DNA of 64,000 bases from an uncultured Candidatus Saccharibacteria bacterium (GCA_964415895.1 CAYQCC010000004.1:243-64242), one strand, 5' to 3'. Positions 49,929 to 64,000 are shown, counted from the first letter of the stretch. Notes: generated from the letters alone by a model not told the origin. Numbers and translations are program-made.

Positions 49929-51197
49929 ATATGCGGTGTTTTTGTTTGGTCGCAAAATTCTAAAAAATATATGAATAAAATATTATCGTACGATGAATAC
50001 CAGAAGAAAATTAAGAGTCTTACTACTCCTGAAGAAATAGCCGCATTCGCTCAGGAACTTATCACCCCCATGCTGAACAATGTCGCAAAGGATGAGCCGA
50101 ATATTGTCGAGGAAAAAATAGAGAAGAAACTGCCTGCTGATGAAAAGCCAGCAAGCCTACCTACTATCAAGCCTAAGTATAACCGCAGGAATCCTTATCA
50201 GCTGGAAACGATGAGTCCTTGGTATGACGTGGTTGGAAACGACACCGAAGCCATGGTTATCGATCTCTATGCTAAAGGCCTGACTACTCGAGACATCGTA
50301 AACCATCTGAAGCGAAGCCATAACATCGACATTTCCCAGCCCAACGTATCCACGATCACCGACAAGGTATTTCCGCTGGTTAAAGAATGGCAATCCCGCG
50401 CATTGTCATCATGTTATCCGATTCTGTATCTCGACGGCATGCACTTCAAGGTTCGGGATGCTGGGAAGATTTCCTCAAAGGTCGCGTATATCGCTCTTGG
50501 TATCAATCAGTATGGACACAAGGAAATTCTCGGCATCTGGATCAGTGAAACTGAAGGGGCGAAATTCTGGATGCATGTCTTGAACGATCTGAAGAATCGT
50601 GGAGTCGATGACATTCTCATCGCGTGCGTTGACGGATTGAAAGGTTTTCCCGAAGCCATCAAGGCCATGTATCCGCATACCGATGTTCAAGTCTGCGTAG
50701 TTCATCAGATCAGACACACTGTTATGTTCATTGCATCGAAAGATAAGGAAAAGTTTTCCGATGAGTTAAAAACTATCTACACTGCACCATCTGAAGATGC
50801 AGGGTTGGAGGCTCTGAAGAACATGCAGGAACGATGGCCGATTTACCAAGCGTATCTGAAAGGTTGGGAGACGCGCTGGGCAGATCTCGCGCCATTCTTC
50901 AGCTATCCGCAAGCCGTGCGAAAGACCGTTTACACGACAAATGCGATTGAAAATCTCAATCGCCAATTCAGAAAGGTAACCAAGACGACACAACTATTCC
51001 CCCATGACGATGCGCTCTTGAAATTGCTCTGGCTTGCGCAAGCAGACATCACGCAAAATTGGCAAATGGCCATCCGCAATTGGGGCGAGGTCATGGCACA
51101 GCTTAGCATCATGTTTCCTGATCGGGTGCAGTTCTAATAACCAAACTATTAACACTTACTAATTAGCGCGACGCAAACAGATGTTTACACCGCATAT
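49929..51197 (+). mobile_element. IS256-family insertion sequence
   Basis: Transposase gene flanked by imperfect inverted ends atatgcggtgt... (left) and ...acaccgcatat (right). Confidence 0.6.
49971..51137 (+). CDS. IS256-family (Mutator-type) transposase
   Basis: 388 aa. ALGINQYGHKEILGIWI...CVDGLKGFPEAI...VQVCVVHQIRH conserved DDE region. Confidence 0.85.
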   Translation: MNKILSYDEYQKKIKSLTTPEEIAAFAQELITPMLNNVAKDEPNIVEEKIEKKLPADEKPASLPTIKPKYNRRNPYQLETMSPWYDVVGNDTEAMVIDLYAKGLTTRDIVNHLKRSHNIDISQPNVSTITDKVFPLVKEWQSRALSSCYPILYLDGMHFKVRDAGKISSKVAYIALGINQYGHKEILGIWISETEGAKFWMHVLNDLKNRGVDDILIACVDGLKGFPEAIKAMYPHTDVQVCVVHQIRHTVMFIASKDKEKFSDELKTIYTAPSEDAGLEALKNMQERWPIYQAYLKGWETRWADLAPFFSYPQAVRKTVYTTNAIENLNRQFRKVTKTTQLFPHDDALLKLLWLAQADITQNWQMAIRNWGEVMAQLSIMFPDRVQF

Positions 51198-51233: not shown

Positions 51234-51306
51234 TGCCCTCGGCAGGACTCGAACCCGCATCTTCCTCAGTAGAACAGAGGCACCCTATCCATTGGACCAC
51301 GAGGGC
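51234..51306 (-). tRNA. tRNA-Arg (probable TCT anticodon), second divergent copy
   Basis: Acceptor GCCCTCG/CGAGGGC, T-arm GCGGGTTCGAGTCCTGC, anticodon arm CCTCT-GTTCTAC-TGAGG with a T-T closing mismatch. Only about 70% identical to the tRNA-Arg at 46383 (aligned by eye) and higher GC. Confidence 0.6.
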
Positions 51307-51422: not shown

Positions 51423-52421
51423 TTACTTTTTTATTTGCATCGATTCTACTCTCTGTATCAGTTTCCATCCGTTTCCATGCGACAGCAGTCCGCGGTACGA
51501 ATTAACCACTGCCTCATCCCCTGCATAGATCCCTGGATTGCTGAGCATTCTACGCTTCGTTGCAGTACGCAGTGTCCGATGATGTGGAAAATGAACCCAC
51601 CCGAGAAAATCTATCCCCGAGGCAAGCGTCTTGATAAATAATTTATTCGGATGCAACGATAATTTTAATTTGGTTTCGAGAAACTCGGAAATCTGCGGAA
51701 CGAGGTTTTCTAAGTAATCCTTGTCCTCATGCAGAATGGCGAAATCGTCCGCATAACGAATATAGTGTTTTATTTTGAGCGTTCGCTTCATGAAGTGGTC
51801 AAATTCATTCATATATACGTTCACCAGAAGTTGTGATGTTAGGTTTCCCAACGGCAAGCCGACATCGACTCTGCCTTCGGTCGAAAAACTATCGATGAGC
51901 CGATCGAATAACTGAAGAAGCTTCTTGTCCTGAATATGCTCCGACAGAATCCTTTTTAGGATTACATGGTCAATGTTCGCAAAGAATTTCCTGATGTCGC
52001 ATTTCAAAATCCAGCACGCCCGCGTATTGTTTTTGGAAACGATGCGCGAGAAATCTGTGAAGCGATTCATCGCCTTATGAGTCCCCTTGTTGATGCGACA
52101 GGAATACGAATCATAGATAAATTTTTTATCAAAATATGGGTACAGTTCATCATGCAAGAGATGGTGCAGTAATCGATCTCGCACCGTCGCCTTATGGATA
52201 TTCCTCGGCTTCGGGTCACTAATTTTAAATGCATCATATCCGCTATGGTGATACTTTTTATATTTCAAATCGTGATGCACATTTAATATGTGTTCCATTA
52301 AATTTCTTTCGAACTCTAGCACGTCGCGTTTTTGTTTTTTGCCGCGGCGAAACTCACGCCATGCGTGTAATAAATTTTCAACCGATATGATATCATCATA
52401 GTTATGATCAAAAAACTTCAT
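51423..52421 (-). CDS. Diversity-generating retroelement reverse transcriptase
   Basis: RT motifs: ISDPKPRNIHKATVRDRLLHH (motif 1/2), LGNLTSQ (the DGR-specific IGxxxSQ replacing QGxxxSP), YADDFAIL (YxDD). Start taken at MKFFDHNYDDIISVENLLHAW. The ORF-track start 52607 reads through a poly-C tract. Confidence 0.85.
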   Translation of the reverse strand: MKFFDHNYDDIISVENLLHAWREFRRGKKQKRDVLEFERNLMEHILNVHHDLKYKKYHHSGYDAFKISDPKPRNIHKATVRDRLLHHLLHDELYPYFDKKFIYDSYSCRINKGTHKAMNRFTDFSRIVSKNNTRACWILKCDIRKFFANIDHVILKRILSEHIQDKKLLQLFDRLIDSFSTEGRVDVGLPLGNLTSQLLVNVYMNEFDHFMKRTLKIKHYIRYADDFAILHEDKDYLENLVPQISEFLETKLKLSLHPNKLFIKTLASGIDFLGWVHFPHHRTLRTATKRRMLSNPGIYAGDEAVVNSYRGLLSHGNGWKLIQRVESMQIKK

Positions 52422-52839
52422 TCCAATAATATTACCCCCCCCCCCGACGATTTTACCAGTGCTGAGTAAGGTAAAAACTGTGTACATCTCATGGTTCGAT
52501 GTGTATAAAAAATTAGAAAAAGTACATAAATACACGCTCGGACAAAAGATTGATAATTTGTTTGTTGAGATTATAGAATCGATATCGCTCGCGACGTTTT
52601 TGGACAAAACAGAAAAACAGCCGTGGATCAGATTTGCGATCAGGAAATTGGATACGGTGAAAATACTGCTATTGATATTATGGGAAACACGCTCGATTGA
52701 TGATACGGTCTACATTACCCTGTCAGAACCAATCCACGAGATTGGTAAAATGCTGGGTGGTTGGAACGGGCAGCTGACAAAACTGTCCGAGAATGCAAAA
52801 TAAAACTCATCCAGATTTTGGATGAGAAACGAAATAATA

Positions 52840-52968
52840 TGCTGGAACGGAACACGAAACGGTTGTTCCCATTCCACCTGTTGTCCATGTGGCCATTGTT
52901 GTTGTTCAACCACGGTTCGGAATCGTTCCGATTCACGTTGAACAGTTTCGGGTCACCGTCTGCGTCAG
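52840..52968 (-). repeat. DGR template repeat (TR)
   Basis: About 129 nt, near-identical to 53317-53448. Every mismatch corresponds to an adenine in this copy on the minus strand. AAC-rich when translated (NNNNGHMDNRWNGNN). Confidence 0.85.
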
Positions 52969-53221
52969 TATTATATGTGATGCCATCCGTGCCACCATCC
53001 ATCGATTCACCCTGTGAGAATTTCTGAATTGAATTTGATTTGATATCTAAAATACCCTAGCACCACATACCAAGTAACTTCATTTTTTGAAGTGTCTACA
53101 TGAATTGCGCTCTACAAGACCGTGATGTTGCAGACTCTGAATTCATGGATACTGATTTCGGTCGTGGCCATCGTAATGAGCCACAGATTAACCTACTCTC
53201 ATCTTAAATATACCATATGAA

Positions 53222-53252
53222 AAAAAATCCTGCCGATGGTGGCAGGATTTTT
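53222..53252. terminator. Intrinsic terminator after the DGR target gene
   Basis: aaaaaaaatcctgccgatggtggcaggatttttt. Confidence 0.65.
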
Positions 53253-53308
53253 TAAGTTCTAAATGCATAGTTTCAAAGTGCCAGTGCACAATATCACAGT
53301 TCACAGGA

Positions 53309-55237
53309 CTAAGACTTGCTGGAACGGAACACGAAACGGTAGAGCCCATGCCACCCGCTGTCCACGCGGCCATAGCAGTAGTAGTCCAACCACGGTACGG
53401 AAGCGTACCGAGACACGCGGAACAGTACCGGGCCACCGCCTGCGCCAGCAATCGGTTCCATTGCAATTCGTAGATATTCGTCATTTGGCTGATCGGTGTA
53501 CGACAATCGCAATTCTGGTCCCACCTGTGGCGGACACAGTTCCAATCCCATGGATCGTGCCTTGTCATAAATTTCCTGCAACGTCGCGCCGTTTGGAAAC
53601 CCAAGCTGTTCAACGGAAAATGAAACGAGCTTGATCTGCTCAGGAGATTTCAATGGCTCAATCTTGTTTAAGATTTGCTGCGCGTAGGTATATACCTGAT
53701 TACCCTTATCAATGAGCTCTTTTGTGTACTGTTCTGGCGTCTTGGTAGACAATTCCAAAGATTGCTTGAAGATTTTTGTCTCTGGGAATGATTCGTACAG
53801 ATACTGTACTGTGTCAGGCATTTTTTGATATATGTCGACATTCCACGGTCCGATATAAGCGACGGTATGTTCATTTACCTGATCAACATTATTTGCAATT
53901 TGGTCTGGCGTGCAGTCAAAAATTACAGGCGCGTCATCCATTGCATTTCTGGTTGAGAGAATTTCTGCAATACGCGGATCTTTCTGGTAACCGAACCCTT
54001 CAATGGAACCATCCATTTCGTACAAGAACCGAAGGTCGGCCGATGACAGCGCTAACCCTGCGCGATTCTTTTCAGTAATCGCAGTGAGATGTTTCATGTC
54101 GGCGGATCGTTTAAGATATTTCTCCCCCTCTGCGCCAAACTCTGACAATTTTTCATCGATCACTGGCTGGATGAACTGGTCGACATTCTGGTCTTTTTCG
54201 ATTCCGCGAATTTCGGAAATACTATCCCCAGTCATTCGGATCGCGATGCGAGGAATCACGGAAATTCCCTGCTCGTCCTGGGAATAGTACACATGGAAAT
54301 CGCCACCTTGTAATTGTGTTCGTGCCGTTTCAATGTTCGTGGCAGTGCACCATTCCAGCGGATATCCCTGAAGCGATTCGTAGAGCTCGTTCGGTTCTGA
54401 ATTTTCTGGATATGTCTTCCATTTTCCTGCAATATTCTCGAGATGTTTCCATGACATTCCTGAGAATTGCTCCAATGCGTGGGTGTACAGTTTTGAAAAG
54501 TTTTCGGTAGACACCAGTTCGCGATACGTGCCGTCATGATTCAGCGAATACATCAACTCCTTTTCTTTCTTTTGGCGATCCAGCATGTTGACCTCGTCTT
54601 TCGGAATTCCCGAAAGGGCGACCTGCTTTTGGATCACGTCAATGGTCTTTGCGAGGCAGGCAATGTTGAGCGTCGGGAACGGCTGCGATGTCGTTTTGGT
54701 TCTCCTGCCGTATCGGGCTTCCTTTTTGTTGTATCCACCCATTTCTGTCATGCTGCGGAATGCCCAGTATTTTGCCCAGTCCGGGTACAGCGCATCTGGT
54801 GATGAAAGGTAGTCAATCCATGCATCGAGTGACCGTCGCTGTCCGTCTTGAATTTCCTTGATCTTTTTCTCTTCCCAATCTGGTGTTGGTTCGGGTCTCC
54901 CGTGTCCCTGCTGTTCTGCGATTCGCTGTTCCTGGTCAAGGAAGTAATCCAACGGGATGTTTTCTGGGCTGATGATCAGTTGTTTGTGAAGCACTCGCTT
55001 CATTGCCTCGATCCCCATGGCGCGCTTTTCTGGATCTTGGCGATCTAAAATTTCCTTGAACCTATTCAGGTAGTTTTCAATGCGATCTTCTGGCTTCTCG
55101 GAAACCTTTTCACCCTTGCGATATTCGGTCCGTTCGGCAGATTTCACCACTTCTGGTGAGGTATGCAGGTTTGCGTATTTCTTCTTGAGAAAATTAATCG
55201 GGTTTTCCATATGCATAACTTTACCACATATTGTCAA
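53309..55237 (-). CDS. DGR target protein with C-terminal variable region
   Basis: 642 aa, no signal peptide. The last ~45 aa (…GGGPVLFRVSRYASVPWLDYYCYGRVDSGWHGLYRFVFRSS) are encoded by the VR. The N-terminal 600 aa are uncharacterised. Confidence 0.75.
   Translation of the reverse strand: MTICGKVMHMENPINFLKKKYANLHTSPEVVKSAERTEYRKGEKVSEKPEDRIENYLNRFKEILDRQDPEKRAMGIEAMKRVLHKQLIISPENIPLDYFLDQEQRIAEQQGHGRPEPTPDWEEKKIKEIQDGQRRSLDAWIDYLSSPDALYPDWAKYWAFRSMTEMGGYNKKEARYGRRTKTTSQPFPTLNIACLAKTIDVIQKQVALSGIPKDEVNMLDRQKKEKELMYSLNHDGTYRELVSTENFSKLYTHALEQFSGMSWKHLENIAGKWKTYPENSEPNELYESLQGYPLEWCTATNIETARTQLQGGDFHVYYSQDEQGISVIPRIAIRMTGDSISEIRGIEKDQNVDQFIQPVIDEKLSEFGAEGEKYLKRSADMKHLTAITEKNRAGLALSSADLRFLYEMDGSIEGFGYQKDPRIAEILSTRNAMDDAPVIFDCTPDQIANNVDQVNEHTVAYIGPWNVDIYQKMPDTVQYLYESFPETKIFKQSLELSTKTPEQYTKELIDKGNQVYTYAQQILNKIEPLKSPEQIKLVSFSVEQLGFPNGATLQEIYDKARSMGLELCPPQVGPELRLSYTDQPNDEYLRIAMEPIAGAGGGPVLFRVSRYASVPWLDYYCYGRVDSGWHGLYRFVFRSSKS
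53317..53448 (-). repeat. DGR variable repeat (VR)
   Basis: Matches TR except at TR-adenine positions (about 25 substitutions) and one 3-nt indel in a triplet run. The identical 3' segment gctggaacggaacacgaaacgg is IMH-like. Confidence 0.85.
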
Positions 55238-55348
55238 AATGTCTTTAATTTAAGGGCTTATTGAATCGTTTTAATACCGTTTGAAACATTTTATTTAAGG
55301 AGTCAAGATATAATCCACCTGTTGGTAACTTTCTTAAAAAAGGCTTTA

Positions 55349-55520
55349 TTTAAAGGGGTTTTATGCTATAATCAGTTCGTTGCCACAATCATATATGCTA
55401 TGAGCTTTTTTGGCTTTGCCGTTACTCGTGCCCAGCAGGGGGTCCACCTCGATGCACATGAGTAACGGCTTAGGCTTATACGATTGTGGCAACCATCGCA
55501 GGTGGCCCCTCTTTTGAGTT
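55349..55520 (+). promoter_or_regulatory. Promoter plus structured leader with nested inverted repeats and terminator-like hairpin upstream of mod
   Basis: TTTATT-16nt-TGcTATAAT promoter (55349-55372). Nested IRs gttgccacaatc/gattgtggcaac and gccgttactc/gagtaacggc. cagggggtccacctcgatg can pair with catcgcaggtggcccct, which is followed by cttttg. Confidence 0.5.
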
Positions 55521-55541
55521 GTAATACCACGCTACGACATA

Positions 55542-57260
55542 GTGTTGCCTATGTCTTATACAGAAAAAGAGCTTATTGCTCAAATTTCAGAATTACAATC
55601 TGAAATCAAAAAATTAAAGGCTCGAAAAAAATACGGACTCGTCTGGGAAGACAAACCAGAAGATGTGGTTTTGCAGTGCGAAACTAACGTCCCTATTCTA
55701 AAAGAAGTTAAGGCCAGAAAGCTGGTATCCGATAATTCGCTCCCAACGAATCTTTTGATCGAGGGAGACAATTATCACTCACTTTCTGTTTTGAACTACA
55801 CACATAAAGGAAAAATAGATCTGATTTATGCAGATCCTCCTTACAACACTGGCAATAAAAGCTGGAGATACAACAATGACTACGTAGAAAAAGAAGATTC
55901 ATTCCGTCACAGTAAATGGATTTCGTTTTTTGAAAAAAGACTGCGCTTAAGTCGTAACCTTTTAAACGACAAGGGTATTATTGTTGTAACGATTGACGAT
56001 TATGAGATCGGTACTGTGCGATTACTAATGGATGAAGTTTTTGGAGAAGAAAACCGTCTGGGGCTGGTGACGATAATGCACAACCCACGAGGAAGAAGTG
56101 ATGATAAATTTTTTGCCACCTCACATGAATACGCACTTTTTTATTCAAAAAATATAGACAGTGCTATTACCCATAAAATCGACCTGACCCAAGAGCAAGC
56201 AGATCTATTTAATCTTTTTGATTCGATCTCTAACTATAGACTTCTTCCCCTTAAAAGAACGGGATCGAATTCAACCCCAAAAGAACGACCCAAATTATTT
56301 TTTCCAATTTTTGTAAACAAAAAAACACTTGAAATTTCAACAAAAAAACAAGGTACTGGGTGGATAGAAGTACTACCTAAAGACGGAACAGGATCTGATC
56401 GTGTATGGCGTTGGGGTAAGGAAAAAATTGAGAAAGAATGGAAGACAGAACTTGTTGCAAAAATAAAGAACGATAAATGCTCACTATTCACAAAAGATAG
56501 AATAAAATCTGGTCGCAAACCAAAAACAATTTGGATCGAACCAAGCTACGATGCCTCATCGCATGGAACCGTACTGTTGGAAAACATTCTTAATAAGAGA
56601 AAGGTTTTTGACTACCCAAAATCACTCTATGCCGTCATCGATACCCTTAAAATAGTTTCAAAAGAAAATAAAGATGCTATCATTCTCGACTTCTTTGCAG
56701 GCTCTGGTACGACGGGCCACGCTGTTCTCGAGCTCAATAAACAAGACGGCGGGAATCGAAAGTTCATACTCTGCACTAACAATGAGAACAAGATTGCCGA
56801 GGAAGTAACCCACGAGCGCCTCAAGCGAATAATAAAAGGATACAAAAACAAAAAAGGAGAGAATGTTGAAGGTCTCGGCGGTAATTTGTCGTACTTCAAA
56901 ACTGATCTCGTTAGTATTGATAAGCTCCGCCGTATTTCAGATGATGCAAAAATAAAAGTTACCTATCGAGCAGGTGAAATGATCGCCCTGCGTGAAAACA
57001 CGTTGAACGAAATTGAGAAAAACGATTGGTGGCAGATATTCGAAGGCAATGGAAAATTAACAGCAATATATTTCACAGAGAGCAAATCAAAACTCATAGA
57101 CCTTCTGGATTTGCTTGAGAAGAAAAATATGCCGACCAATTTGTATATTTTTGGCTGGGGAAAAAATGAGTACAAAAACGATTATTCCACGAAGATTATC
57201 CGAGTCGAGGATATTCCAGAACCGATCCTTGAGGTCTACAAGGAAATTAACCGCATCTAA
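55542..57260 (+). CDS. mod: Type III restriction-modification methyltransferase (Mod, N6-adenine)
   Basis: IYADPPYNTGN (DPPY) followed later by FFAGSGTTGHAV (FxGxG). 572 aa. Confidence 0.85.
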   Translation: MLPMSYTEKELIAQISELQSEIKKLKARKKYGLVWEDKPEDVVLQCETNVPILKEVKARKLVSDNSLPTNLLIEGDNYHSLSVLNYTHKGKIDLIYADPPYNTGNKSWRYNNDYVEKEDSFRHSKWISFFEKRLRLSRNLLNDKGIIVVTIDDYEIGTVRLLMDEVFGEENRLGLVTIMHNPRGRSDDKFFATSHEYALFYSKNIDSAITHKIDLTQEQADLFNLFDSISNYRLLPLKRTGSNSTPKERPKLFFPIFVNKKTLEISTKKQGTGWIEVLPKDGTGSDRVWRWGKEKIEKEWKTELVAKIKNDKCSLFTKDRIKSGRKPKTIWIEPSYDASSHGTVLLENILNKRKVFDYPKSLYAVIDTLKIVSKENKDAIILDFFAGSGTTGHAVLELNKQDGGNRKFILCTNNENKIAEEVTHERLKRIIKGYKNKKGENVEGLGGNLSYFKTDLVSIDKLRRISDDAKIKVTYRAGEMIALRENTLNEIEKNDWWQIFEGNGKLTAIYFTESKSKLIDLLDLLEKKNMPTNLYIFGWGKNEYKNDYSTKIIRVEDIPEPILEVYKEINRI

Positions 57261-57264
57261 TTAT

Positions 57265-59556
57265 ATGTTTGCACTCAAACCATTCCAAGAAAATGCCATC
57301 GGTCACCTCAAGGAGAAGTTTCTGACGCTGTGGAAACTCGGCGATCGCAATTTGAGCCTCACACTCAAATCCCCAACAGGATCTGGGAAGACGGTCATGA
57401 TGGCGCAATTCCTGCGAGACATCGTATCGGATCCGCGATTCCAAAATGCCGATGTCGGATTCTTGTGGATCACTAATTCGGATTCATTGGCTATGCAGTC
57501 AAAAGAAAAGCTGTTTTCGTATTATGGAGGAGCAAGTGAGAACACGTTGCTCGATCTGAATGATCTACGTGACGGCTATATTCCCAAGAACGGAGTATTC
57601 TTCATCAACTGGCAGAAATTGGTATCGCGAGCGCAGACCAACAGAAAACTTCGTGCGGAAGGCGAACTCAATACCACTTTTGACGAATATTTGGATGCCA
57701 CCCATGCACAAGGACGAGAGGTCGTCCTGATTATAGACGAGGAGCATATCGCCTCATCTACCGTTCTTGCAAATGACCTGATTCAAAACGTTATCAAGCC
57801 ACGAATCATCATCGGAGTTTCCGCTACCCCACAAACGGTCGGAGTCACCGTCGATGTTGATCGTGCCGATGTCGTTCGCGAAGGTCTCATCAAAGAGAAA
57901 ACTATCTTCCAAACCGAGGAAGATTTGGCACATCCCGAATTCAAGGGAATGGATCAGGACGATATTCTGCTTACCCTTGCATACAACAAGCGAGCCGAGC
58001 TTGCCAGTTACTATGCTGATCTTGGTATCGATATAAATCCCTTAGTGCTTATCCAGCTTCCAAATGACGACAAGTCTTCAGAGGGATCGAAGCAGGATCT
58101 GATTATCAACTTCCTCAAGTCAAAGGGAGTATTCGAGCACGAAATCGCAGTCTGGCTCTCAGAAGATAAAATAAATCTCGATGCAATCGAGAAAAATAAT
58201 TCGCCTGTTTCATTTTTGCTTTTCAAGCAAGCGGCGGCTACTGGTTGGGATTGTCCTCGCGCAAGTGTCCTGGTTATGTTCCGCGAAATTAAGAATCCGA
58301 CATTTGCAATCCAAACGGTAGGACGCATTCTGCGCATGCCACTTGGAACACATTTTCCAAAACCTGAATTGAATCTCGGTTATCTCTACACCAATTACAA
58401 GCGAAATGAAGTGATTATGGGATACTCAAAATCTACCGACCAGAACCGCCCTGCCATCTACGGGAGTTACCGCAAGCAGTCCATCGAACCGATCATGCTT
58501 GAATCCGTATTCATGAGCCGAACCGATTACAACGACCTTGGTGACAGTTTTCAAGACGAGTTCAAAAAGATTGCCGATGAGTATTTCTTGCTCAAGGGAA
58601 ACATTACCGCAAAAACCGTACGCAAGAATTTCTCTGACAAAGGACTTGATCCTGATACTGTCGTTACGAACGGACTCATCATAGGAGTGGAAATTGACGA
58701 TTACGACAACTTCAAACAGGAACTCCTTTCAGAAGGCAGTAGCCATGAGCAGGAAATGTCCCAGCACGATCTCGAGCGACTCTATAACCTCTTTTGCTTC
58801 AATCTGCTCGCAAAACAAACCGACGAGAATAAGAAGTTTGCGCCAGAGCGTTCATGGGGTAAACTCAAGACAGCCTTGAACGTTTGGCTACTGGGACATT
58901 TCGAAGAACCTCGACAAAAAATCTATTCGATTATTGTCGGAGACCTCTTAAAAACAAATAGCGTCCTCGCACCTCTTATCGGAAAATCTCTTGAATCATA
59001 TCGATCTATACGCGAACATGAGGTCAATCGAAAATCGGAACGCGCGAAGCGGACTGAAAAAATCGAAATCCCTCGGCAAAGCATTTTCTATACTGATCAA
59101 TATGAAGAGATGGATGTTAGGAAATCAGCTATGACTCCGTTTTATATTGAAAAGGATTACAAGGGTGACGATAACGAAAAGGAATTTATAAAGTTCCTTG
59201 AAGAAAGCAAGAACGTCACATGGTGGTACAAGAACGGCGATGCTGGTAGTGAATTCTTTTCGATATCCTATTTCAACCCAGACGAGAACAAGGAGAAGCT
59301 TTTCTATCCCGACTGGATATTCAAGGTAAAGGATACAGTTTGGATCGTTGATACAAAGAAAGGCTTTACGGCTGAATCTGCTGACACTAAATACAAATCC
59401 GAGGCACTCCAACAATGGCTCAAAGGTAAGAAAGAATTCACGGGCGGAATAGCAGTGCAAGATGGTCCGAACGGATGGAAGTTTAACCGCAATACTATCT
59501 ATTCTTACACGCCATCATTTACCAAATGGGATGATTTGAAGGATTTATTCGCATAA
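57265..59556 (+). CDS. res: Type III restriction enzyme Res subunit (SF2 helicase-nuclease)
   Basis: Walker A KSPTGSGKTV, DEEH box LIIDEEHIAS, helicase motif VI QTVGRILRMP. Starts 5 nt after mod. Confidence 0.85.
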   Translation: MFALKPFQENAIGHLKEKFLTLWKLGDRNLSLTLKSPTGSGKTVMMAQFLRDIVSDPRFQNADVGFLWITNSDSLAMQSKEKLFSYYGGASENTLLDLNDLRDGYIPKNGVFFINWQKLVSRAQTNRKLRAEGELNTTFDEYLDATHAQGREVVLIIDEEHIASSTVLANDLIQNVIKPRIIIGVSATPQTVGVTVDVDRADVVREGLIKEKTIFQTEEDLAHPEFKGMDQDDILLTLAYNKRAELASYYADLGIDINPLVLIQLPNDDKSSEGSKQDLIINFLKSKGVFEHEIAVWLSEDKINLDAIEKNNSPVSFLLFKQAAATGWDCPRASVLVMFREIKNPTFAIQTVGRILRMPLGTHFPKPELNLGYLYTNYKRNEVIMGYSKSTDQNRPAIYGSYRKQSIEPIMLESVFMSRTDYNDLGDSFQDEFKKIADEYFLLKGNITAKTVRKNFSDKGLDPDTVVTNGLIIGVEIDDYDNFKQELLSEGSSHEQEMSQHDLERLYNLFCFNLLAKQTDENKKFAPERSWGKLKTALNVWLLGHFEEPRQKIYSIIVGDLLKTNSVLAPLIGKSLESYRSIREHEVNRKSERAKRTEKIEIPRQSIFYTDQYEEMDVRKSAMTPFYIEKDYKGDDNEKEFIKFLEESKNVTWWYKNGDAGSEFFSISYFNPDENKEKLFYPDWIFKVKDTVWIVDTKKGFTAESADTKYKSEALQQWLKGKKEFTGGIAVQDGPNGWKFNRNTIYSYTPSFTKWDDLKDLFA

Positions 59557-59562
59557 AAAAAT

Positions 59563-61101
59563 ATGAGCACATTGATATCAAAAACAACTTTTATAGATTC
59601 ACGCAATTGTATTAAAAATACATGGCTCAAGCTCCACAAGGCAGAACTTTTGGTGAATTTTGAGCTATCTGAATTTGAAAAGCAGCTTATCGAGCAAGGA
59701 AACGAGGTGGAAGAATGCGCTCGCAAGCTTTTCCCTCTCGGCGTTGAGGTTACGAGCACGGGAGAGAATGCCTGCATTGAAACAATGCGATACATGGAGT
59801 CCAAAGTTCCTGCCATTTTTCAGGCAACATTTATTGCTGACGGATTCATTGCTCGAAACGACGTGCTGGTATATGACAAGAATAATGATTGCTGGGATTT
59901 GTACGAGATCAAGGGAACGAACTCTCTCAAGGAAGGGTCGGGCGACAGAAGCCATGTCGAGGATGTCGCTTTTCAAGCCGTTGTGCTCCGTCGCGCCAAC
60001 ATGAATCTCGGACGCTCGTTCTTGGTTCACCTGAATAAAGACTATGTGAGAGTTGGTGATCTCGATATCGAACAGTTGTTCATTATTGAAGATCTCACTG
60101 AAACAGTCGCGGAGAGGTTCGACGAGATAAGTATCCTGATGGACGGAGCAAGGGAGTTTCTTTCGCAGGAGAACGAACCTCCGTCTGGTTGCGATTGCCA
60201 CTATCTCGGCAGAAGCAGGCACTGCGCAACCTTCCCATATTCCCATCCTAAAATTCCTGAATATTCCGTTCATGACCTTTCGCGAATCGGCAGCAGCAAG
60301 AAAAAGCTTGAATTCTTTGCCGAAAATGAAATCTATCGTCTGGAGGATATTCCATATGATTTTGAATTATCGCCAATCCAGACAAACCAGCTTGAAGCTT
60401 ATCTCACGCAAAAGATAACGATCGATTACGAAGAGATTCATCAGCAGTTGAAAAACCTCAGGTTCCCTCTCTACTTTTTCGACTATGAAACATATGCGCC
60501 CGCCATACCGTCTTTCGCAAATTACAGCCCGTACAAGCGCATTCCGTTTCAATTCTCGCTTCACATTTTGAGAGATCCTATGGGAGAACTCGACCATGTC
60601 GAATTTCTCCATCCTACGCGCACCGATCCGTCTGAACTGGTTGCTAAATTACTCAACGAATACATCAAGCCCGAGGGAACGATCATCGCGTGGAACAAGT
60701 CGTTTGAAATCGGAGTCAACAATGAGATTGCACAACGGCTTCCAGAATATCGGGAGCTGCTCGAGAGAGTCAACGGTCAATTTTACGATCTCATGGAAGT
60801 TTTCTCAAAACAGCACTACATCCATCCCGATTTCCGCGGAAGCGCATCGATCAAGAAAGTGCTTCCTGTATTGGTGCCAGAACTTCAGTATAAGGATCTT
60901 GCCATTCACGAGGGAGGTCAGGCATCCGAGCAGTGGTGGTTCATGGTATCGCCGACGACTTCGGAGGAAAATTACGCCGAAGTTTCAAGAAACTTGAAGG
61001 AATACTGCAAGCTGGATACCTACGCCATGTATGCGATTTGGAAGCACTTGTATCAGATAACGGAATACTTATCTAAAATCAGCGAGGGAAATATTGGATG
61101 A
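59563..61101 (+). CDS. Dual-nuclease protein: Cas4-like PD-(D/E)xK domain (with Cys cluster) fused to a DEDD/RNase-H-like exonuclease domain (DUF2779-like)
   Basis: N-terminal ARNDVLVY...WDLYEIKG...QAVVL (D, ExK, Q motifs) with Cys16 and CDCHYLGRSRHC. C-terminal FFDYETYAP (DxE), IIAWNKSFEIG, and HxxxxD/Y motif DTYAMYAIWKH. Starts 7 nt after res. Confidence 0.5.
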   Translation: MSTLISKTTFIDSRNCIKNTWLKLHKAELLVNFELSEFEKQLIEQGNEVEECARKLFPLGVEVTSTGENACIETMRYMESKVPAIFQATFIADGFIARNDVLVYDKNNDCWDLYEIKGTNSLKEGSGDRSHVEDVAFQAVVLRRANMNLGRSFLVHLNKDYVRVGDLDIEQLFIIEDLTETVAERFDEISILMDGAREFLSQENEPPSGCDCHYLGRSRHCATFPYSHPKIPEYSVHDLSRIGSSKKKLEFFAENEIYRLEDIPYDFELSPIQTNQLEAYLTQKITIDYEEIHQQLKNLRFPLYFFDYETYAPAIPSFANYSPYKRIPFQFSLHILRDPMGELDHVEFLHPTRTDPSELVAKLLNEYIKPEGTIIAWNKSFEIGVNNEIAQRLPEYRELLERVNGQFYDLMEVFSKQHYIHPDFRGSASIKKVLPVLVPELQYKDLAIHEGGQASEQWWFMVSPTTSEENYAEVSRNLKEYCKLDTYAMYAIWKHLYQITEYLSKISEGNIG

Positions 61102-61127
61102 AATGCCTCTATGTAAACCAGATTCAC

Positions 61128-62975
61128 TTAGTTAAAATCTTTCTTTAACACCTCCTCGAACTTTTCTACATATTTTTCTATTGCTTCCCTGTCTGGCTCA
61201 ATGCTTTCCTTGTCGATAAAATATTTCTGGTCGATTTTCAGGTCGGATTTACGCTTGCGCAACATGCCAGTGTTATTGTCTGGCACCTGACCCGTTAGTT
61301 TTCCTAGATGGTCATTATGCTCGTCAATATACGAAGCTATTACCCACAGCCATTTGTGCACCTTGTAGGAAAGATCTATCTCGTACACCGTGGACAGTTT
61401 TATGAACAATTCTTCAAATGCCTTTAGCTCCGCATATCCTTTTGCCAGACCAGCGCATTCTCTCAAAAAGATCTGCTCCATGAATTTGCTTTTGAAGATT
61501 AGGACCCTCTCGCCATTCTCCTCAGCTTCAGTGAAAAATACGGAGCTCTCCACGAGACGGCCCAACATTCGGGTGGCCATTCCAAACATGCTGAAGATAT
61601 TAAAATCACCAGCAGTGTTTTTGTCCGCAATAATTAACTCCTGATCCAAATGATCGCCTGCATGATCTGGATCGTCATCGGCGTATACGAGTCCAAGATT
61701 TGCATGATAGGTCTCTACGTTAGTCTTGAAATCGTCTATGAATTTCCAATCGCTCTTAAGAAGGTACAGGCTCTCGCCAGTAATCACCTTATCGCTGAAC
61801 GTTGCAAAAACAACTTTTTCTTCGGATTCGATTTTCTCTAATGATTGCGGATTAAATTCCATTCCCATAGTTTCAAGCGCAAGCTGTCCCTTTTTGAACT
61901 CGCTATCATACAGACGTTTGCTGTAAAGCAGGTCGTCCCTTGATTCGTCTGATGATCGGCCCCGTAGTTTCAATTCACCCTTATCTATCAAATCTTTAAG
62001 CATGGCCATTGCCGTGCTTTTTGAATTAATCCATCGTTCAAAGAGCTCCTTGCTTGTGCTGAAAACAAGAGGTGTATATTGCTCGAACAGATCCTCGTCA
62101 ATCCATTGTAGGCAAGATCCTTTCAATAATTCGCGTATCTCGGCATTGTGTTCCTTTGCGTAACCTTCCATCGCTTTCTGAATCTCATCGTGAGTAGTCT
62201 CATCTTCATTATCAGAGTCCTGATTCTGCGCCAATGATTTCCCTTCAATTGATATGCCGTGGCGAACCAGAAAACGGCGCGCCACTTCTGCCACGGGAAT
62301 GCAGGCAAAATAATGATAGAGCTGATACGATTTCGCAAATTCGTTATAGCTTCGGTCGGCAACCATCTCAGCCAGTGCTTCCTTTGCCTTCTGACTCAGT
62401 TCCCCTTTGCTATCGAGCAGATTTGCGATGACTTCTTCCTGATCCAAATACTGATGATCTAAATCTACTTCGCAATATAGTTCGCGAAGCTGTTCCTTGT
62501 CCTTCTCGCTTAAAAGTTCAAACGCCAACTGGTACACGGCATAATCGAAATCCAGTCCGTTTTTCAATTTAACGGCTTTTTGTTTTTCCGTGATCTGCAC
62601 AGCAGTTCCTATGTCCACCGATTTCGTTTCTTTCAGTCGCTTGATCAGCGTCCGCATTTCATTAAATTCTGGATATGAAAACAAATTGCACATGATGGGA
62701 TGTTTCCTGAGATGCGCGTTTTGCGTATTCAGAAATAGGGTTTGCATGTCGAGTGCTGCATACCCAACTATGTTCCATCCCTCCAAGAAGCGGTTATACT
62801 CCTTAACCTCATGATTATCTTTTGGTCTCCACTTCTCATGGATCGCGTTACGATCTGCATCGGTCAAGATGCCTTCACCCTTTTGTTCCTTTGCCACATC
62901 ATCATGCACCATAAACAAGACCCGTTCCTTGGGCGTTAGTTCATTGGTATTAAAAACTGAATTAAGATGTTTCAT
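61128..62975 (-). CDS. Large hypothetical protein (615 aa)
   Basis: Acidic, helical. No recognised motif. Last gene of a four-gene minus-strand operon. Confidence 0.35.
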   Translation of the reverse strand: MKHLNSVFNTNELTPKERVLFMVHDDVAKEQKGEGILTDADRNAIHEKWRPKDNHEVKEYNRFLEGWNIVGYAALDMQTLFLNTQNAHLRKHPIMCNLFSYPEFNEMRTLIKRLKETKSVDIGTAVQITEKQKAVKLKNGLDFDYAVYQLAFELLSEKDKEQLRELYCEVDLDHQYLDQEEVIANLLDSKGELSQKAKEALAEMVADRSYNEFAKSYQLYHYFACIPVAEVARRFLVRHGISIEGKSLAQNQDSDNEDETTHDEIQKAMEGYAKEHNAEIRELLKGSCLQWIDEDLFEQYTPLVFSTSKELFERWINSKSTAMAMLKDLIDKGELKLRGRSSDESRDDLLYSKRLYDSEFKKGQLALETMGMEFNPQSLEKIESEEKVVFATFSDKVITGESLYLLKSDWKFIDDFKTNVETYHANLGLVYADDDPDHAGDHLDQELIIADKNTAGDFNIFSMFGMATRMLGRLVESSVFFTEAEENGERVLIFKSKFMEQIFLRECAGLAKGYAELKAFEELFIKLSTVYEIDLSYKVHKWLWVIASYIDEHNDHLGKLTGQVPDNNTGMLRKRKSDLKIDQKYFIDKESIEPDREAIEKYVEKFEEVLKKDFN

Positions 62976-63205
62976 TTTATTTTTCTTTGCTTCAATACTT
63001 GTTCGATAAATTCGACCCGTTTCTTAAGCTCGACCGTTTCGATCGTTCTGGACATGGCCACTGCGAGACGAGAGACGACAAGTGCGTATCGGAGCGTAAC
63101 TCTCTTTGCTTCAACATCTCTGAATGTCTGGGAAAGAATGAGCGCAACTTCCTCGGGGCTCATATGGCTCTGTATAGGCAAGTTTTTTGAATCTAGGTAT
63201 TCCAT
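62972..63205 (-). CDS. Hypothetical small protein (77 aa)
   Basis: Overlaps the downstream gene by 4 nt. Confidence 0.3.
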   Translation of the reverse strand: MEYLDSKNLPIQSHMSPEEVALILSQTFRDVEAKRVTLRYALVVSRLAVAMSRTIETVELKKRVEFIEQVLKQRKIK

Positions 63206-63216
63206 ACGATTATTGG

Positions 63217-63591
63217 TTACATGCCTTCCACTAATTCAAGCCATGCTTTCACTTCTGCCGCCTTTCCATTTTTGCTTGCGGTGCGATACAGGGCAAAGAT
63301 AACATTCGGGGTAAGCTTGCGCGCCCATTCATGAATGCGAGAAAGTGTTCCCTCCTTTTCCAGTCGCTTGTTCCAGTCCGTGAGAGTGGCAGGGTCCTTG
63401 ATATCGAACCGTTCCGCAAATTGACGCTGGGTCTTTATCTCAAGCAGGCTGAGCGCTATGTCCTCGTCGACGCCGAATTTCTCGAGAACCTGCCGTGGCT
63501 GTCCGCGCAGAAAAGACGGCAATGCTTTCCACATCGCGTATGATTCGAATTCTTGAGTCTTGTAGACGCTTTGTTTTTTAGAGTCGTTCAT
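63217..63591 (-). CDS. Hypothetical HTH-containing protein (124 aa)
   Basis: IKTQRQFAERFDIKDPATLTDWNKR resembles an HTH. Could be terminase-small-subunit-like or a regulator. Confidence 0.3.
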   Translation of the reverse strand: MNDSKKQSVYKTQEFESYAMWKALPSFLRGQPRQVLEKFGVDEDIALSLLEIKTQRQFAERFDIKDPATLTDWNKRLEKEGTLSRIHEWARKLTPNVIFALYRTASKNGKAAEVKAWLELVEGM

Positions 63592-64000
63592 AATATTTTT
63601 TCAGCTTTCTTTCTGGTAAGTTTTTCGAGACGCGCGATCGCAGTTGCGACGTATTCCGGATCAAGCTCAATACCTATACACCGTCGACCGAGGTGCTCAC
63701 AGGCGATTGCCGTGCTTCCACTTCCAAGGAACGGGTCATAGACATATTCGTTGACCTTGGTTGAATTGGGAATTATTTTTCTCAGCAGTCCGACTGGCTT
63801 TTGGGTCGGATGGAGTTTCGATGACGAAGGCTTCGGGTGGATGATCACGCTTTTTGCCTTGGATCGTTCCATCTTGTGTTTTCCGAACCAACCGTAAGCT
63901 ATGAGCTCAAACATCATCAAGTAATCCTTCCGATTCATCACCACCTGGTTCTTGAACCAGATGATCATCTGGCTGTAATAGAAGCCTGCCTCTTTCATGC
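63588..64000 (-). CDS. DNA methyltransferase (N6/N4 family), C-terminal part; gene continues beyond window
   Basis: SSSKLHPTQKPVGLLRKII...VYDPFLGSGSTAIACEHLGRRCIGIELDPEY. The N-terminus lies outside the window. Confidence 0.75.
   Translation of the reverse strand, partial: MKEAGFYYSQMIIWFKNQVVMNRKDYLMMFELIAYGWFGKHKMERSKAKSVIIHPKPSSSKLHPTQKPVGLLRKIIPNSTKVNEYVYDPFLGSGSTAIACEHLGRRCIGIELDPEYVATAIARLEKLTRKKAEKIL

What the first reader, a model, noticed from the sequence alone, without database searches (positions are those of the whole stretch)
55349..61101. Type III R-M (mod-res) in a tight operon with a Cas4-like/DEDD dual-nuclease gene and a structured attenuator-like leader
mod, res, and a 512-aa gene are separated by only 5 and 7 nt. 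The third protein combines an N-terminal PD-(D/E)xK nuclease with a Cas4-like Cys cluster and a C-terminal DnaQ/RNase-H-like exonuclease (DxE…N..FE…H/Y..D). This composition suggests an accessory DNA-end-processing module coupled to Type III restriction, for example degrading restriction products or spacer-acquisition-like processing. The mod leader (55377-55520) has nested inverted repeats and an alternative pairing that ends in a U-run, which looks like transcription attenuation.
Basis: partly seen in the sequence, partly recalled or inferred. Interest (0 to 1): 0.65.

Follow-up and report, generated by a model that had tools for sequence, protein, structure and literature searches.

The report
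Restriction operon with switch-like RNA leader
A Type III restriction-modification operon on a mobile island of a Patescibacteria genome has an unannotated, conserved folded RNA leader that probably switches it on and off, while the double-nuclease gene behind it belongs to a known family and is a neighbour rather than a dedicated partner.

Summary
The gaps are 4 and 6 nt, not 5 and 7. The third protein is PF11074/DUF2779, a Cas4-like PD-(D/E)xK domain plus a DEDDy exonuclease; this architecture was published in 2014 and 2026.

Coupling to Type III R-M is not conserved. Only 2 of 80 species-level DUF2779 loci have mod-res nearby, and only 1 of 80 mod-res loci has DUF2779 nearby. Syntenic sister islands (L177, L180) lack it at exactly this position. 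DUF2779 does often sit in defence islands, next to varied helicase-nucleases.

The leader is real and is the interesting part (z = -4.9). Its layout recurs with different sequences in 17 related loci:
- A 5' box A1 pairs with A'.
- An enclosed box B pairs with B', which is followed by a U-run.
- A copy of A1 (A2) ends 1-4 nt before the start codon.

In some relatives, including one syntenic island, the leader at this position is Rfam LOOT RNA (RF03000), an orphan "sRNA". The window's version does not score as LOOT. The best reading is a cis-acting switch combining termination and translation control; its trigger is unknown.

The parts
55364..55372 (+). Predicted extended -10 promoter (TGcTATAAT). 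It would start transcription at about 55379, the first base of box A1.
   Evidence: Read from the sequence. The 46 nt just upstream (55317-55362) are 91% identical in sister locus L178. The consensus scan did not list it because the -35 is poor. The promoter is inferred, not shown.
55379..55555 (+). Structured 5' leader of mod ('type 2', LOOT-like). Elements:
- A1: 55379-55390.
- Hairpin: 55402-55416.
- P3: 55418-55430 with 55457-55469.
- B: 55438-55449, in the P3 loop.
- A': 55482-55493.
- B': 55500-55509, followed by the U-run 55510-55515.
- AUG hairpin: 55536-55542 with 55549-55555, with A2 (55544-55549) in its loop.
   Evidence: Fold z = -4.9. Duplex energies: A1:A' -18.6, B:B' -21.0, A':A2 -9 kcal/mol. 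The same layout with other sequences occurs in 9 further type-2 leaders and 7 or more LOOT leaders. No Rfam family matches it.
55551..57260 (+). mod: Type III beta-class N6-adenine DNA methyltransferase, 569 aa.
   Evidence: PF01555 at 3e-29. PADLOC MTase_III at 9e-91. DPPY at aa 95-98 lies before FAGSGTT at aa 382-388. The middle part (window 55928-56491) is unalignable with the otherwise 92% identical sister L178, which indicates a swap of the target-recognition domain (TRD).
57265..59556 (+). res: Type III restriction subunit, 763 aa, an SF2 helicase-like ATPase with a C-terminal PD-(D/E)xK nuclease.
   Evidence: PF04851 ResIII at 5e-16. PADLOC REase_III at 4e-17. Motifs: TGSGKT 38-43, DEEH 158-161, SAT 186-188, QTVGRILR 350-357, and PD...D-T-K at 682-698.
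59563..61101 (+). DUF2779 (PF11074) dual nuclease, 512 aa. The N-terminal domain is a Cas4/MGME1-like PD-(D/E)xK nuclease with four Cys. The C-terminal domain is a DEDDy 3'-5' exonuclease.
   Evidence: PF11074 at 2.7e-39 over aa 304-429. NCBIfam UU173 family at 2.7e-16, below its cut-off. Invariant catalytic residues and Cys across 30 homologues. AlphaFold model with pLDDT 88.7. Foldseek hits to MGME1 and Cas4 (probability 1.0, E about 1e-2) and to RNase T and ERI1-type exonucleases. Literature: PMC3985635, PMC13621843.
48495..55237 (-). Left part of the island that carries the operon:
- Large serine recombinase: 48495-49955.
- tRNA: 51234-51306.
- Diversity-generating retroelement (DGR): RT 51423-52607, bAvd 52459-52803 on the + strand, TR 52840-52968, and the target gene 53309-55237 with VR 53317-53448.
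   Evidence: tblastn gives 62% identity to the recombinase of L003. Pfam RVT_1 and bAvd. TR/VR repeat with substitutions at T on the + strand, which is A on the coding strand. The same DGR-then-mod-res synteny occurs in L176-L180.
61128..64000 (-). Right part of the island: a convergent operon of a 615-aa, a 77-aa and a 124-aa protein, a 252-aa MTase (cut by the window end), then a ParB-MTase and a 507-aa protein beyond the window.
   Evidence: Gene calls on the full contig L001. Only the two MTases have PHROG or PADLOC hits. The same operon follows res directly, with no DUF2779, in L177 and L180.

Best explanation
WHAT IT IS. The region is cargo of an integrative island in a Patescibacteria (Paceibacterota-like) genome. 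In order, the island carries a serine recombinase, a tRNA, a diversity-generating retroelement (DGR), this operon, and a methyltransferase-containing operon. The operon consists of three things.

(1) A complete Type III restriction-modification (R-M) system (mod, res).

(2) A 5' leader RNA, transcribed with mod, that is a structural variant of the LOOT-type leaders found before orthologous mod genes.

(3) A downstream DUF2779 gene encoding a Cas4-like/DEDDy double exonuclease. Here it is almost certainly co-transcribed (6-nt gap). It is nevertheless an independently distributed gene that often lies in defence islands, not a component of the R-M system.

PROPOSED LEADER MECHANISM (inferred).
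- The 5' box A1 pairs with A' and closes a folded core.
- B lies inside the core. When it pairs with B' just ahead of a U-run, it forms a terminator-like helix.
- A2, a copy of A1 ending 1-4 nt before the AUG, can capture A' when the core is not closed, and so bury the translation start.
- Whether the core is folded therefore sets both read-through and translation of mod-res.
- In LOOT leaders the two states are nearly iso-energetic. In the window the closed-core state is favoured by about 13 kcal/mol, and the AUG additionally sits in a small hairpin.

SHOWN: the helices, their compensatory conservation, their position and orientation relative to start codons, and the gene distributions.

INFERRED: transcription from 55379, termination at the U-run, the ON/OFF logic, and the trigger (protein, ligand or co-transcriptional kinetics), which is unknown.
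For: GENE IDENTITIES..

ISLAND CONTEXT..

DUF2779 IS NOT TIED TO TYPE III R-M.
- 80 species-level DUF2779 loci: mod-res is nearby only in L022 and L047.
- The immediate upstream genes fall into 73 different Pfam families.
- 80 metagenome mod-res loci: only L116 has a DUF2779 gene, on the opposite strand at 34% identity.
- Closest islands: L176, L177, L179, L180 and L181 lack it; only the sister L178 has it.
- The closest DUF2779 orthologues (L003, L007; 75-77%) follow a PDC-S37/Hhe-type helicase-nuclease.

DEFENCE-ISLAND RESIDENCE. The upstream and downstream neighbours include Res, SNF2, AAA_13, HerA, Type IIG, SIR2, DRT and AbiE proteins.

LEADER.
- Fold z = -4.9.
- The A1/A'/A2 triple occurs in 17 loci with different sequences; 0-9 of 1000 dinucleotide shuffles reach the observed value in each locus.
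- B:B' is 8-17 bp in 12 of the 14 leaders scanned ungapped and is followed by a U-run in most. The ungapped scan missed the helix in the window and L137, which was read by hand: 10 bp with a 1-nt bulge in the window.
- In the 10 type-2 leaders, 90% of cells are paired against 38-61% in slid controls, and 4 of 7 B:B' pairs show compensatory changes.
- G-U pairs and GNRA loops fit only the sense strand.
- LOOT hits of 58-78 bits lie immediately 5' of orthologous mod genes.
- LOOT and type-2 leaders replace each other in syntenic islands: L177 against L176, L179 and L180.
Against: - There are no expression data. The promoter, the termination at the U-run and the regulatory outcome are all predictions.
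- In the window and L093 the A':A2 state is 11-13 kcal/mol worse than the closed-core state, and A2 is only 6 nt in the window. A simple thermodynamic two-state switch therefore does not fit the window as well as it fits the LOOT leaders.
- B:B' is a pseudoknot relative to P1/P3 in the window, and its energetics could not be modelled.
- Most mod relatives (about 69 of 80 metagenome loci) have no leader of either type by nhmmer, so the leader is not essential to this R-M family.
- For DUF2779: the tight junction is retained in L006 and L178. About one fifth of species have a large NTPase or nuclease gene tightly upstream. Functional cooperation is therefore not excluded.
Confidence: 0.65

Rival explanations
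1. The DUF2779 dual nuclease is a dedicated accessory of the Type III system. It would degrade or process the DNA ends made by Res: the Cas4-like domain working 5'-3', the DEDDy domain 3'-5'.
For: - The gap is 6 nt and the genes are co-directional.
- The mod-res-DUF2779 order is kept in L006 (proteins 64-71% identical) and L178, and more loosely in L022 and L047.
- In about 13-15 of 74 species the gene directly upstream is a large helicase, ATPase or nuclease defence-type protein.
Against: - 78 of 80 DUF2779 loci lack mod-res nearby, and 79 of 80 mod-res loci lack DUF2779.
- Syntenic islands L177 and L180 go from res straight to the same convergent operon.
- Most upstream neighbours are unrelated or housekeeping-type genes such as sigma-70, thioredoxin/DsbA and Dus.
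- The family is 55-65% identical across Patescibacteria.
- A homologue is quasi-essential in a minimal Mycoplasma (PMC13621843).
Confidence: 0.15
2. The leader region encodes an independent small RNA, as Rfam classes LOOT. It would end at the U-run (about 55379-55516) and act in trans. mod would simply be read through or be separately transcribed.
For: - Rfam lists LOOT as 'Gene; sRNA'.
- A predicted promoter sits right at A1, and a conserved helix plus U-run follows about 135 nt later.
- LOOT copies also occur before non-mod genes.
Against: - In all 17 cases the element is co-oriented with a gene and immediately 5' of it (B' to AUG is 21-57 nt).
- A copy of A1 ends 1-4 nt before that gene's start codon, a constraint a trans-acting sRNA would not impose.
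- No plausible promoter lies between the U-run and the AUG in the window.
- The two readings are not exclusive. A terminated leader could also accumulate.
Confidence: 0.15
3. The repeats act at the DNA level. A1, A' and A2 would be recombination or inversion sites giving phase variation of mod. Alternatively they would be footprints of a small inserted element.
For: - The layout is direct (A1, A2) and inverted (A') copies of one 6-13 nt sequence.
- A serine recombinase is encoded on the island.
- The leader and the mod target-recognition domain (TRD) are the two segments replaced between the window and L178.
Against: - The box sequences differ between loci, whereas recombinase sites are normally conserved.
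- G-U wobble pairs in B:B' and GNRA tetraloops are strand-specific RNA features.
- The LOOT core has independent covariation support in Rfam.
- A' would not co-vary with a target-site duplication.
- L176 has the window's TRD (Mod 89% identical) but a different leader, so the boxes do not track Mod specificity.
Confidence: 0.04

Closest known systems
LOOT RNA (Rfam RF03000; Weinberg et al. 2017, described only in the supplement of PMC5737381)
   Same: - It occupies the same position, immediately 5' of orthologous Type III mod genes, including in a syntenic island (L177).
- It has the same logic: a closing helix A1:A' around a hairpin that carries B.
- Outside the Rfam model it has the same 3' extension: B' plus a U-run, and an A1 copy at the start codon.
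   Different: - The window's leader lacks the LOOT 5' hairpin (GCCUAA...GGCAUGGC).
- It lacks the two GNRA-capped hairpins between A' and B'.
- Its core is different and larger.
- It gets no LOOT hit even at E <= 10.
- Rfam treats LOOT as an sRNA of unknown function. I could not read the original supplement, so I cannot say whether a link to methyltransferase genes was noted there.
Type III restriction-modification systems (EcoP1I/EcoP15I type)
   Same: - mod precedes res in one operon.
- Mod is a beta-class N6-adenine MTase.
- Res combines SF2 ATPase motifs with a C-terminal PD-(D/E)xK nuclease.
   Different: - Res is divergent: PADLOC models cover only part of it.
- From my own knowledge, no structured RNA leader has been described for Type III systems. 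I ran no literature search for one.
PF11074/DUF2779 proteins (RNase H-like family F.17 of Majorek et al. 2014; MMSYN1_0389 of JCVI-syn3.0; NCBIfam UU173 family)
   Same: It has the same two-domain architecture, with the PD-(D/E)xK D-E-K triad and the DEDD(y) residues conserved.
   Different: - The Patescibacteria proteins keep all four Fe-S-type cysteines, whereas MMSYN1_0389 has only two according to PMC13621843.
- They are shorter, about 500 aa.
- Neither paper, in the passages I read, discusses residence in defence islands.
CRISPR-associated Cas4, and the DEDDh trimming exonucleases fused to Cas2
   Same: It has the fold and the Cys cluster of Cas4 (Foldseek 4r5q) together with a DnaQ-like exonuclease. 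Together these are the two activities used in prespacer trimming.
   Different: - No cas1, cas2 or other cas gene appears among the called neighbours. I did not scan for CRISPR arrays.
- PADLOC returned no match of any kind for the protein.
Riboswitch and attenuator expression platforms; kinetic leader switches such as those of MS2 maturation and hok
   Same: One strand of a closing helix can pair in two mutually exclusive ways. One alternative partner is at a terminator and one is at the ribosome-binding region.
   Different: - No ligand pocket, leader peptide or trans factor has been identified.
- The core sequence is not conserved between leader types.

Membership tests
Type III restriction-modification system | Mod is an N6-adenine MTase with motif IV (DPPY) before motif I (FxGxG), and it matches Type III Mod models. 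| tested here: met
   PF01555 at 3e-29. PADLOC MTase_III at 9e-91. DPPY at aa 95-98 and FAGSGTT at aa 382-388.
Type III restriction-modification system | Res has SF2 helicase-like ATPase motifs and a C-terminal PD-(D/E)xK nuclease, and is encoded directly after mod. | tested here: met
   PF04851 at 5e-16. PADLOC REase_III at 4e-17, with partial coverage. Motifs are located. The gap to mod is 4 nt.
Type III restriction-modification system | ATP-dependent cleavage that requires two inversely oriented unmethylated sites. | not testable with these tools
   This needs biochemistry.
PF11074 / DUF2779 dual nuclease family | A Pfam PF11074 match above the gathering score. | tested here: met
   134.7 bits against a cut-off of 23.3; E = 2.7e-39.
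PF11074 / DUF2779 dual nuclease family | An N-terminal Cas4-like PD-(D/E)xK domain with a catalytic D...E-x-K and a Cys cluster. | tested here: met
   D100, E115, K117, Q138, C16, C210, C212 and C221 are invariant in 30 homologues. Foldseek finds MGME1 and Cas4 4r5q with probability 1.0 but weak E-values of about 1e-2. Pfam and PDB sequence searches found no match for this half.
PF11074 / DUF2779 dual nuclease family | C-terminal DEDD(h/y) exonuclease residues. | tested here: met
   D307, E309, E382 and D485 are invariant, and Y481 lies 4 residues before D485. Foldseek matches to RNase T, ERI1, Orn and PolB exonuclease domains are weak.
CRISPR-associated Cas4 | Encoded with cas1/cas2 or beside a CRISPR array. 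| tested here: not met
   No cas genes appear among the called neighbours in the window contig or in related loci. PADLOC returned no match of any kind for the protein. CRISPR arrays were not scanned for.
LOOT RNA (RF03000) | A covariance-model score at or above the gathering score of 46.4 bits. | tested here: not met
   There is no LOOT hit in window 55200-55650 at E <= 10, nor in type-2 loci L093, L137, L176, L178, L179 and L181. Leaders of orthologous mod genes in L092, L094, L099, L114, L154 and L163 score 58-78 bits.
LOOT RNA (RF03000) | A 5' hairpin GCCUAA...GGCAUGGC, and two GNRA-capped hairpins 3' of the closing helix. | tested here: not met
   These are absent from the window leader.
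LOOT-type leader architecture (defined here) | An A1:A' closing helix; an enclosed B pairing with a downstream B' followed by a U-run; and an A1 copy ending 1-4 nt before the start codon. | tested here: met
   In the window: A1:A' is 12 bp, B:B' is 10 bp followed by CUCUUUUG, and A2 (GTTGCC) ends 1 nt before the AUG. 7 of 1000 shuffles reach the observed triple.
Intrinsic-terminator attenuator | A G+C-rich helix immediately followed by a U-tract, with an alternative structure that prevents it, and shown to terminate transcription. | tested here: inconclusive
   The helix plus U-run is conserved. In the window it is long-range, a pseudoknot relative to P1/P3. Only a weak 5-bp local hairpin is called by the scan. 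There are no transcript data.
Riboswitch | A conserved ligand-binding core, and binding of a small molecule. | not testable with these tools
   The core sequence differs between leader types. No Rfam riboswitch matches.

The most novel reading that the evidence does not exclude
LOOT RNAs and the LOOT-like variant in this window would be one class of cis-acting 5' leader switches. They would gate potentially self-toxic cargo genes of Patescibacteria mobile islands, such as Type III R-M operons and secreted or SNase-type nucleases. A single folded core would simultaneously control a pseudoknot-type terminator (B:B' plus a U-run) and occlusion of the start codon (A':A2), in response to a still unknown protein or small-molecule signal. 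This would give the orphan Rfam family a function. To my knowledge it would also be the first structured RNA regulator described for a Type III restriction-modification system.
Probability: 0.35. Interest if true: 0.75.

Novelty: new variant of a known kind. Interest (0 to 1): 0.55.

Why it matters
Restriction systems must be expressed carefully: methylation has to come before cutting, and neither activity should be in excess. For Type III systems, and for the reduced genomes of Patescibacteria, how this is achieved is essentially unknown.

The work here has three consequences.

1. **Context for an orphan RNA family.** LOOT gains a concrete genomic setting: it sits 5' of mod and nuclease genes on mobile islands.
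2. **A defined expression platform and a new variant.** A conserved 3' platform lying outside the Rfam model is now defined, and a second, unannotated structural variant occupies the same position. This yields a directly testable regulatory model through mutations and compensatory mutations of A1, A', A2, B and B'.
3. **A corrected inference about DUF2779.** Its Cas4-like/DEDDy architecture looks like a restriction accessory, but the gene is distributed independently. Its recurrent defence-island residence next to varied helicase-nucleases is a lead in its own right.

Tried and rejected
- **Phage origin of the locus.** blastn against phage records gave only two trivial hits. A scan of viral contigs with Mod gave 9 distant loci, none with a leader of either type.
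- **Repeat family.** The leader is not repeated elsewhere in the window or in the first 86 loci.
- **Boxes as the Mod recognition sequence.** I asked whether the A and B boxes encode the Mod recognition sequence, because the leader and the mod target-recognition domain (TRD) are both replaced between the window and L178. I rejected this because L176 has the window's TRD (Mod 89% identical) but a different leader.
- **A' as a Shine-Dalgarno mimic.** This was considered and rejected because its sequence is not conserved between loci.
- **Terminase identity for the 615-aa and 507-aa proteins of the convergent operon.** There was no similarity to the terminase-like protein of L181 and no PHROG hit.
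- **Covariance model for type-2 leaders.** None was built, because the core domains differ too much for MAFFT to align. I used nhmmer profiles and per-locus helix tables instead.
- **RNAalifold on mixed alignments.** It picks B:B' rather than P1. This fits the idea of competing structures but is not a test of it.
- **Literature on LOOT.** The only usable literature mention found is one sentence in PMC7657543. The original description is in a supplement that is not held in the library.

Full report
**What is in the window.**
Three co-directional genes lie at 55551-57260, 57265-59556 and 59563-61101.

- **Gene 1 (mod).** This is a Type III Mod: PF01555 at 3e-29 and PADLOC MTase_III at 9e-91. DPPY (aa 95-98) precedes FAGSGTT (aa 382-388).
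- **Gene 2 (res).** This is a Type III Res: PF04851 at 5e-16 and PADLOC REase_III at 4e-17. It has the SF2 motifs TGSGKT, DEEH, SAT and QTVGRILR, and a C-terminal PD...D-T-K.
- **Gene 3 (DUF2779).** It matches PF11074/DUF2779 at 2.7e-39 over aa 304-429.

**The third protein.**
An alignment of 30 homologues (55-85% identical) has these positions invariant or nearly invariant:
- C16, D100, E115, K117, Q138, C210, C212 and C221. These are a PD-(D/E)xK triad with a Cas4-type four-Cys cluster.
- D307, E309, E382, Y481 and D485. These are the DEDDy residues.

An AlphaFold model (pLDDT 88.7) finds MGME1 and Cas4 (4r5q) for the N-terminal half, with probability 1.0 but E only about 1e-2. For the C-terminal half it finds RNase T, ERI1, Orn and polymerase-B exonuclease domains. 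Sequence searches of Pfam and PDB do not detect the N-terminal domain.

The architecture is not new. Majorek et al. 2014 list DUF2779 as RNase H-like family F.17 joined to a PD-(D/E)xK domain (PMC3985635). A 2026 paper describes the Mycoplasma homologue MMSYN1_0389, a quasi-essential gene, as a Cas4-like plus DEDDh/y dual nuclease (PMC13621843).

**Is DUF2779 coupled to Type III restriction?**
I tested this from both sides.

*Starting from DUF2779.* I collected 80 loci from species-representative genomes, at 45-77% identity and nearly all Patescibacteria.
- Only L022 and L047 have mod and res upstream, each with another gene in between.
- The gene directly upstream belongs to 73 different Pfam families in 74 loci.
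- The commonest upstream neighbour is a Upf1-like helicase with an MTES_1575 nuclease domain (5-6 loci; PADLOC PDC-S37/Hhe).
- The next commonest are thioredoxin/DsbA (4), ResIII (3), SNF2 (2) and sigma-70 (2).

*Starting from Mod.* I collected 80 metagenome loci at 39-75% identity. Almost all have res next to mod. Only one (L116) has a DUF2779 gene, on the opposite strand and 34% identical.

*The six closest Mod homologues on long contigs (68-89%).*
- Five have no DUF2779.
- L177 and L180 go from res straight into the same convergent operon that follows DUF2779 in the window.
- Only L178, a near-identical sister (Res 94%, DUF2779 97.7%), has the gene.
- The closest DUF2779 orthologues outside that sister (L003, L007; 75-77%) sit 14 nt behind a 1633-aa helicase-nuclease, with the same right-hand operon in L007.

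So mod-res and DUF2779 are separate modules that share a slot.

What remains is a looser pattern. Roughly a quarter to a third of species (my estimate from family counts) have a defence-type gene immediately beside DUF2779, on either side. Examples are Res, SNF2, AAA_13/PDC-S06, HerA, Type IIG, SIR2, DRT and AbiE. The gene is therefore a frequent defence-island resident with no fixed partner.

**The island.**
- The window carries a large serine recombinase (48495-49955, 62% identical to the one beside L003's locus) and a tRNA (51234-51306).
- It carries a DGR with RT, bAvd, TR 52840-52968 and VR 53317-53448 at the 3' end of the target gene 53309-55237.
- The operon follows, and then a convergent operon with two phage-type methyltransferases.
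- Host-type genes resume beyond it on the full contig.
- The order recombinase, DGR, leader-mod-res recurs in L176-L180.

The operon is therefore cargo of an integrative element.

**The leader.**
The region 55360-55550 folds at -69.5 kcal/mol with z = -4.9. An extended -10 (TGcTATAAT, 55364-55372) would start the RNA at A1. This promoter is read from the sequence and is inferred.

The elements are:
- A1 (55379-55390) pairs with A' (55482-55493): 12 bp, -18.6 kcal/mol.
- Inside lie a small hairpin and P3 (13 bp).
- The P3 loop holds B (55438-55449). B pairs with B' (55500-55509): 10 bp, one bulge, -21 kcal/mol. CUCUUUUG follows B'.
- A2 (GTTGCC, 55544-55549) repeats the start of A1. It sits in the loop of a 7-bp hairpin whose 3' arm contains the AUG.

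No Rfam family matches, and the element is not a repeat.

**Conservation of the leader.**
Upstream regions of Mod relatives show the same three-box layout with different sequences. They fall into two types.

*Type 1.* Found in L092/L095, L094, L099/L177, L114, L154 and L163.
- These are hit by Rfam LOOT RNA (RF03000) at 58-78 bits against a gathering score of 46.4.
- The Rfam model ends after two GNRA hairpins. The leaders continue with B' plus (C)UUUU(U)G, and with an exact 9-11-nt copy of A1 (pairing with A' over 10-13 bp) that ends 1-4 nt before the start codon.

*Type 2.* Found complete in the window, L093, L137, L176, L178, L179, L180 and L181, and in part in L006 and L089.
- These lack the LOOT 5' hairpin and the GNRA hairpins.
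- They get no LOOT hit even at E <= 10.
- They keep A1:A', B:B' plus the U-run, A2, and additionally the AUG hairpin.

*Statistics.*
- In each of 17 loci the A1/A'/A2 triple is reached by only 0-9 of 1000 dinucleotide shuffles.
- On the type-2 alignment, 90% of cells in B:B' and the AUG hairpin are paired, against 38-61% when partners are slid. Four of seven B:B' pairs show compensatory changes.
- G-U pairs in B:B' and GAAA/GNRA loops are sense-strand features.

*Further observations.*
- LOOT and type-2 leaders replace each other in syntenic islands: L177 against L176, L179 and L180.
- LOOT copies with the same extension also precede an SNase-type nuclease gene (L003) and a 153-aa gene (L007), just downstream of DUF2779.
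- A LOOT copy in L022 has instead an A'-like copy overlapping the Shine-Dalgarno sequence.

**How the leader most likely works (inference).**
- A' can pair with A1, which closes the core, or with A2, which buries positions -14 to -2.
- B can stay in the core or pair with B' next to a U-run. In LOOT leaders and in the L176 group, B overlaps a core stem.
- One folding decision could therefore set both termination before mod and initiation at its AUG.
- In LOOT leaders the closed-core and A':A2 states differ by only 0.2-4.5 kcal/mol, so they are bistable.
- In the window and L093 the closed-core state wins by 11-13 kcal/mol and A2 is short. The window variant may thus rely more on the B:B' and U-run element and on the AUG hairpin.
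- I cannot name the trigger.
- The box sequences do not follow Mod specificity. L176 shares the window's target-recognition domain (TRD) but not its leader.
- The leader and the TRD are the two segments that cannot be aligned between the window and its 92% identical sister L178. Both therefore behave as exchangeable modules.

**Comparison with what is known, and novelty.**
- The R-M genes are ordinary.
- The dual nuclease is a member of a described family.
- The leader works like a LOOT RNA with its (undescribed) expression platform, but it fails the LOOT membership test.
- LOOT itself is listed by Rfam as an sRNA without function. The only text I could find on it is a remark about unusual cross-covariation (PMC7657543). 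The original supplement was not readable, so earlier notice of a methyltransferase association cannot be excluded.
- I rate the finding a new variant of a known kind and of moderate interest. The value lies in the leader, not in the proposed nuclease coupling.

**Limits.**
- All regulatory statements rest on sequence comparison.
- The loci were collected through Mod or DUF2779, so the list of genes that LOOT-type leaders precede is biased.
- Pseudoknot energetics were not modelled.
- Gene calls in the surveyed loci come from a crude longest-ORF caller.

Noticed in passing
window 51423-55237: A complete diversity-generating retroelement (DGR) lies here. It comprises the RT (ORF 51423-52607, minus strand), bAvd (52459-52803, plus strand), TR 52840-52968 and VR 53317-53448 at the 3' end of a 642-aa target gene (53309-55237, minus strand). 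TR and VR differ at plus-strand T positions, which are adenines on the coding strand. The same DGR sits divergently upstream of mod in L176-L180, and L176 has a second DGR after res.
   Followed up: partly
window 48495-49955 (minus strand), tRNA 51234-51306, and L001 13336-15000: A large serine recombinase is 62% identical to the ones flanking related loci (L003, L007, L022, L176-L178, L181). With the tRNA on one side and host-type genes resuming after the 507-aa gene on the other, this suggests an integrative island of roughly 19 kb. Its ends were not determined.
   Followed up: partly
window 55363-55547 and 55928-56491, compared with L178: The window and L178 are 92% identical in DNA from 56492 to 63773. 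They are 83-91% identical in the promoter region and the first 126 mod codons. The leader and the central part of mod, presumably the target-recognition domain (TRD), cannot be aligned. Mod is 73% identical while Res is 94% identical. This is a module swap that presumably changes specificity.
   Followed up: partly
L003 10952-11058, L007 7233-7339, L022 12996-13111 (minus strand), L011 11623-11707, L102 3470-3577: LOOT RNA copies lie on the same kind of island just downstream of DUF2779. They sit directly 5' of other genes: an SNase-type nuclease, a 153-aa protein and a putative secreted protein. In L022 the third box near the start codon is an A'-like copy overlapping a GGAGG Shine-Dalgarno sequence, not an A1 copy.
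   Followed up: partly
window 61128-64000 and L001 8670-14859: A convergent six-gene operon is conserved with the island in L006, L007, L177, L178 and L180. It encodes 615-aa, 77-aa and 124-aa proteins, an MTase, a ParB-MTase and a 507-aa protein. Only the two methyltransferases have any family match. Related islands carry terminase-like genes at comparable positions (L176, L181), but no similarity to them was found.
   Followed up: partly
L003 4434-9338, L007 722-5620, L027, L044, L051: Helicase-nuclease proteins of 1174-1635 aa sit 0-14 nt upstream of, or slightly overlapping, DUF2779 in several species. Their domains are AAA_11/AAA_12 plus MTES_1575, with an added N-terminal DUF4011 in L003 and L007. 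They match PADLOC PDC-S37 and Hhe at E down to 1e-288. SNF2, AAA_13 (PDC-S06) and HerA-like proteins occupy the same position in other species.
   Followed up: partly
window 30000-36000: G+C drops to 0.28 in this segment, against about 0.40 in the flanking sequence. This may be another horizontally acquired segment. It was not examined.
   Followed up: no
L181 10536-10997: In a related island a PycTM-domain gene (a Pycsar-type effector domain) overlaps the end of res, at the position where DUF2779 sits in the window.
   Followed up: no
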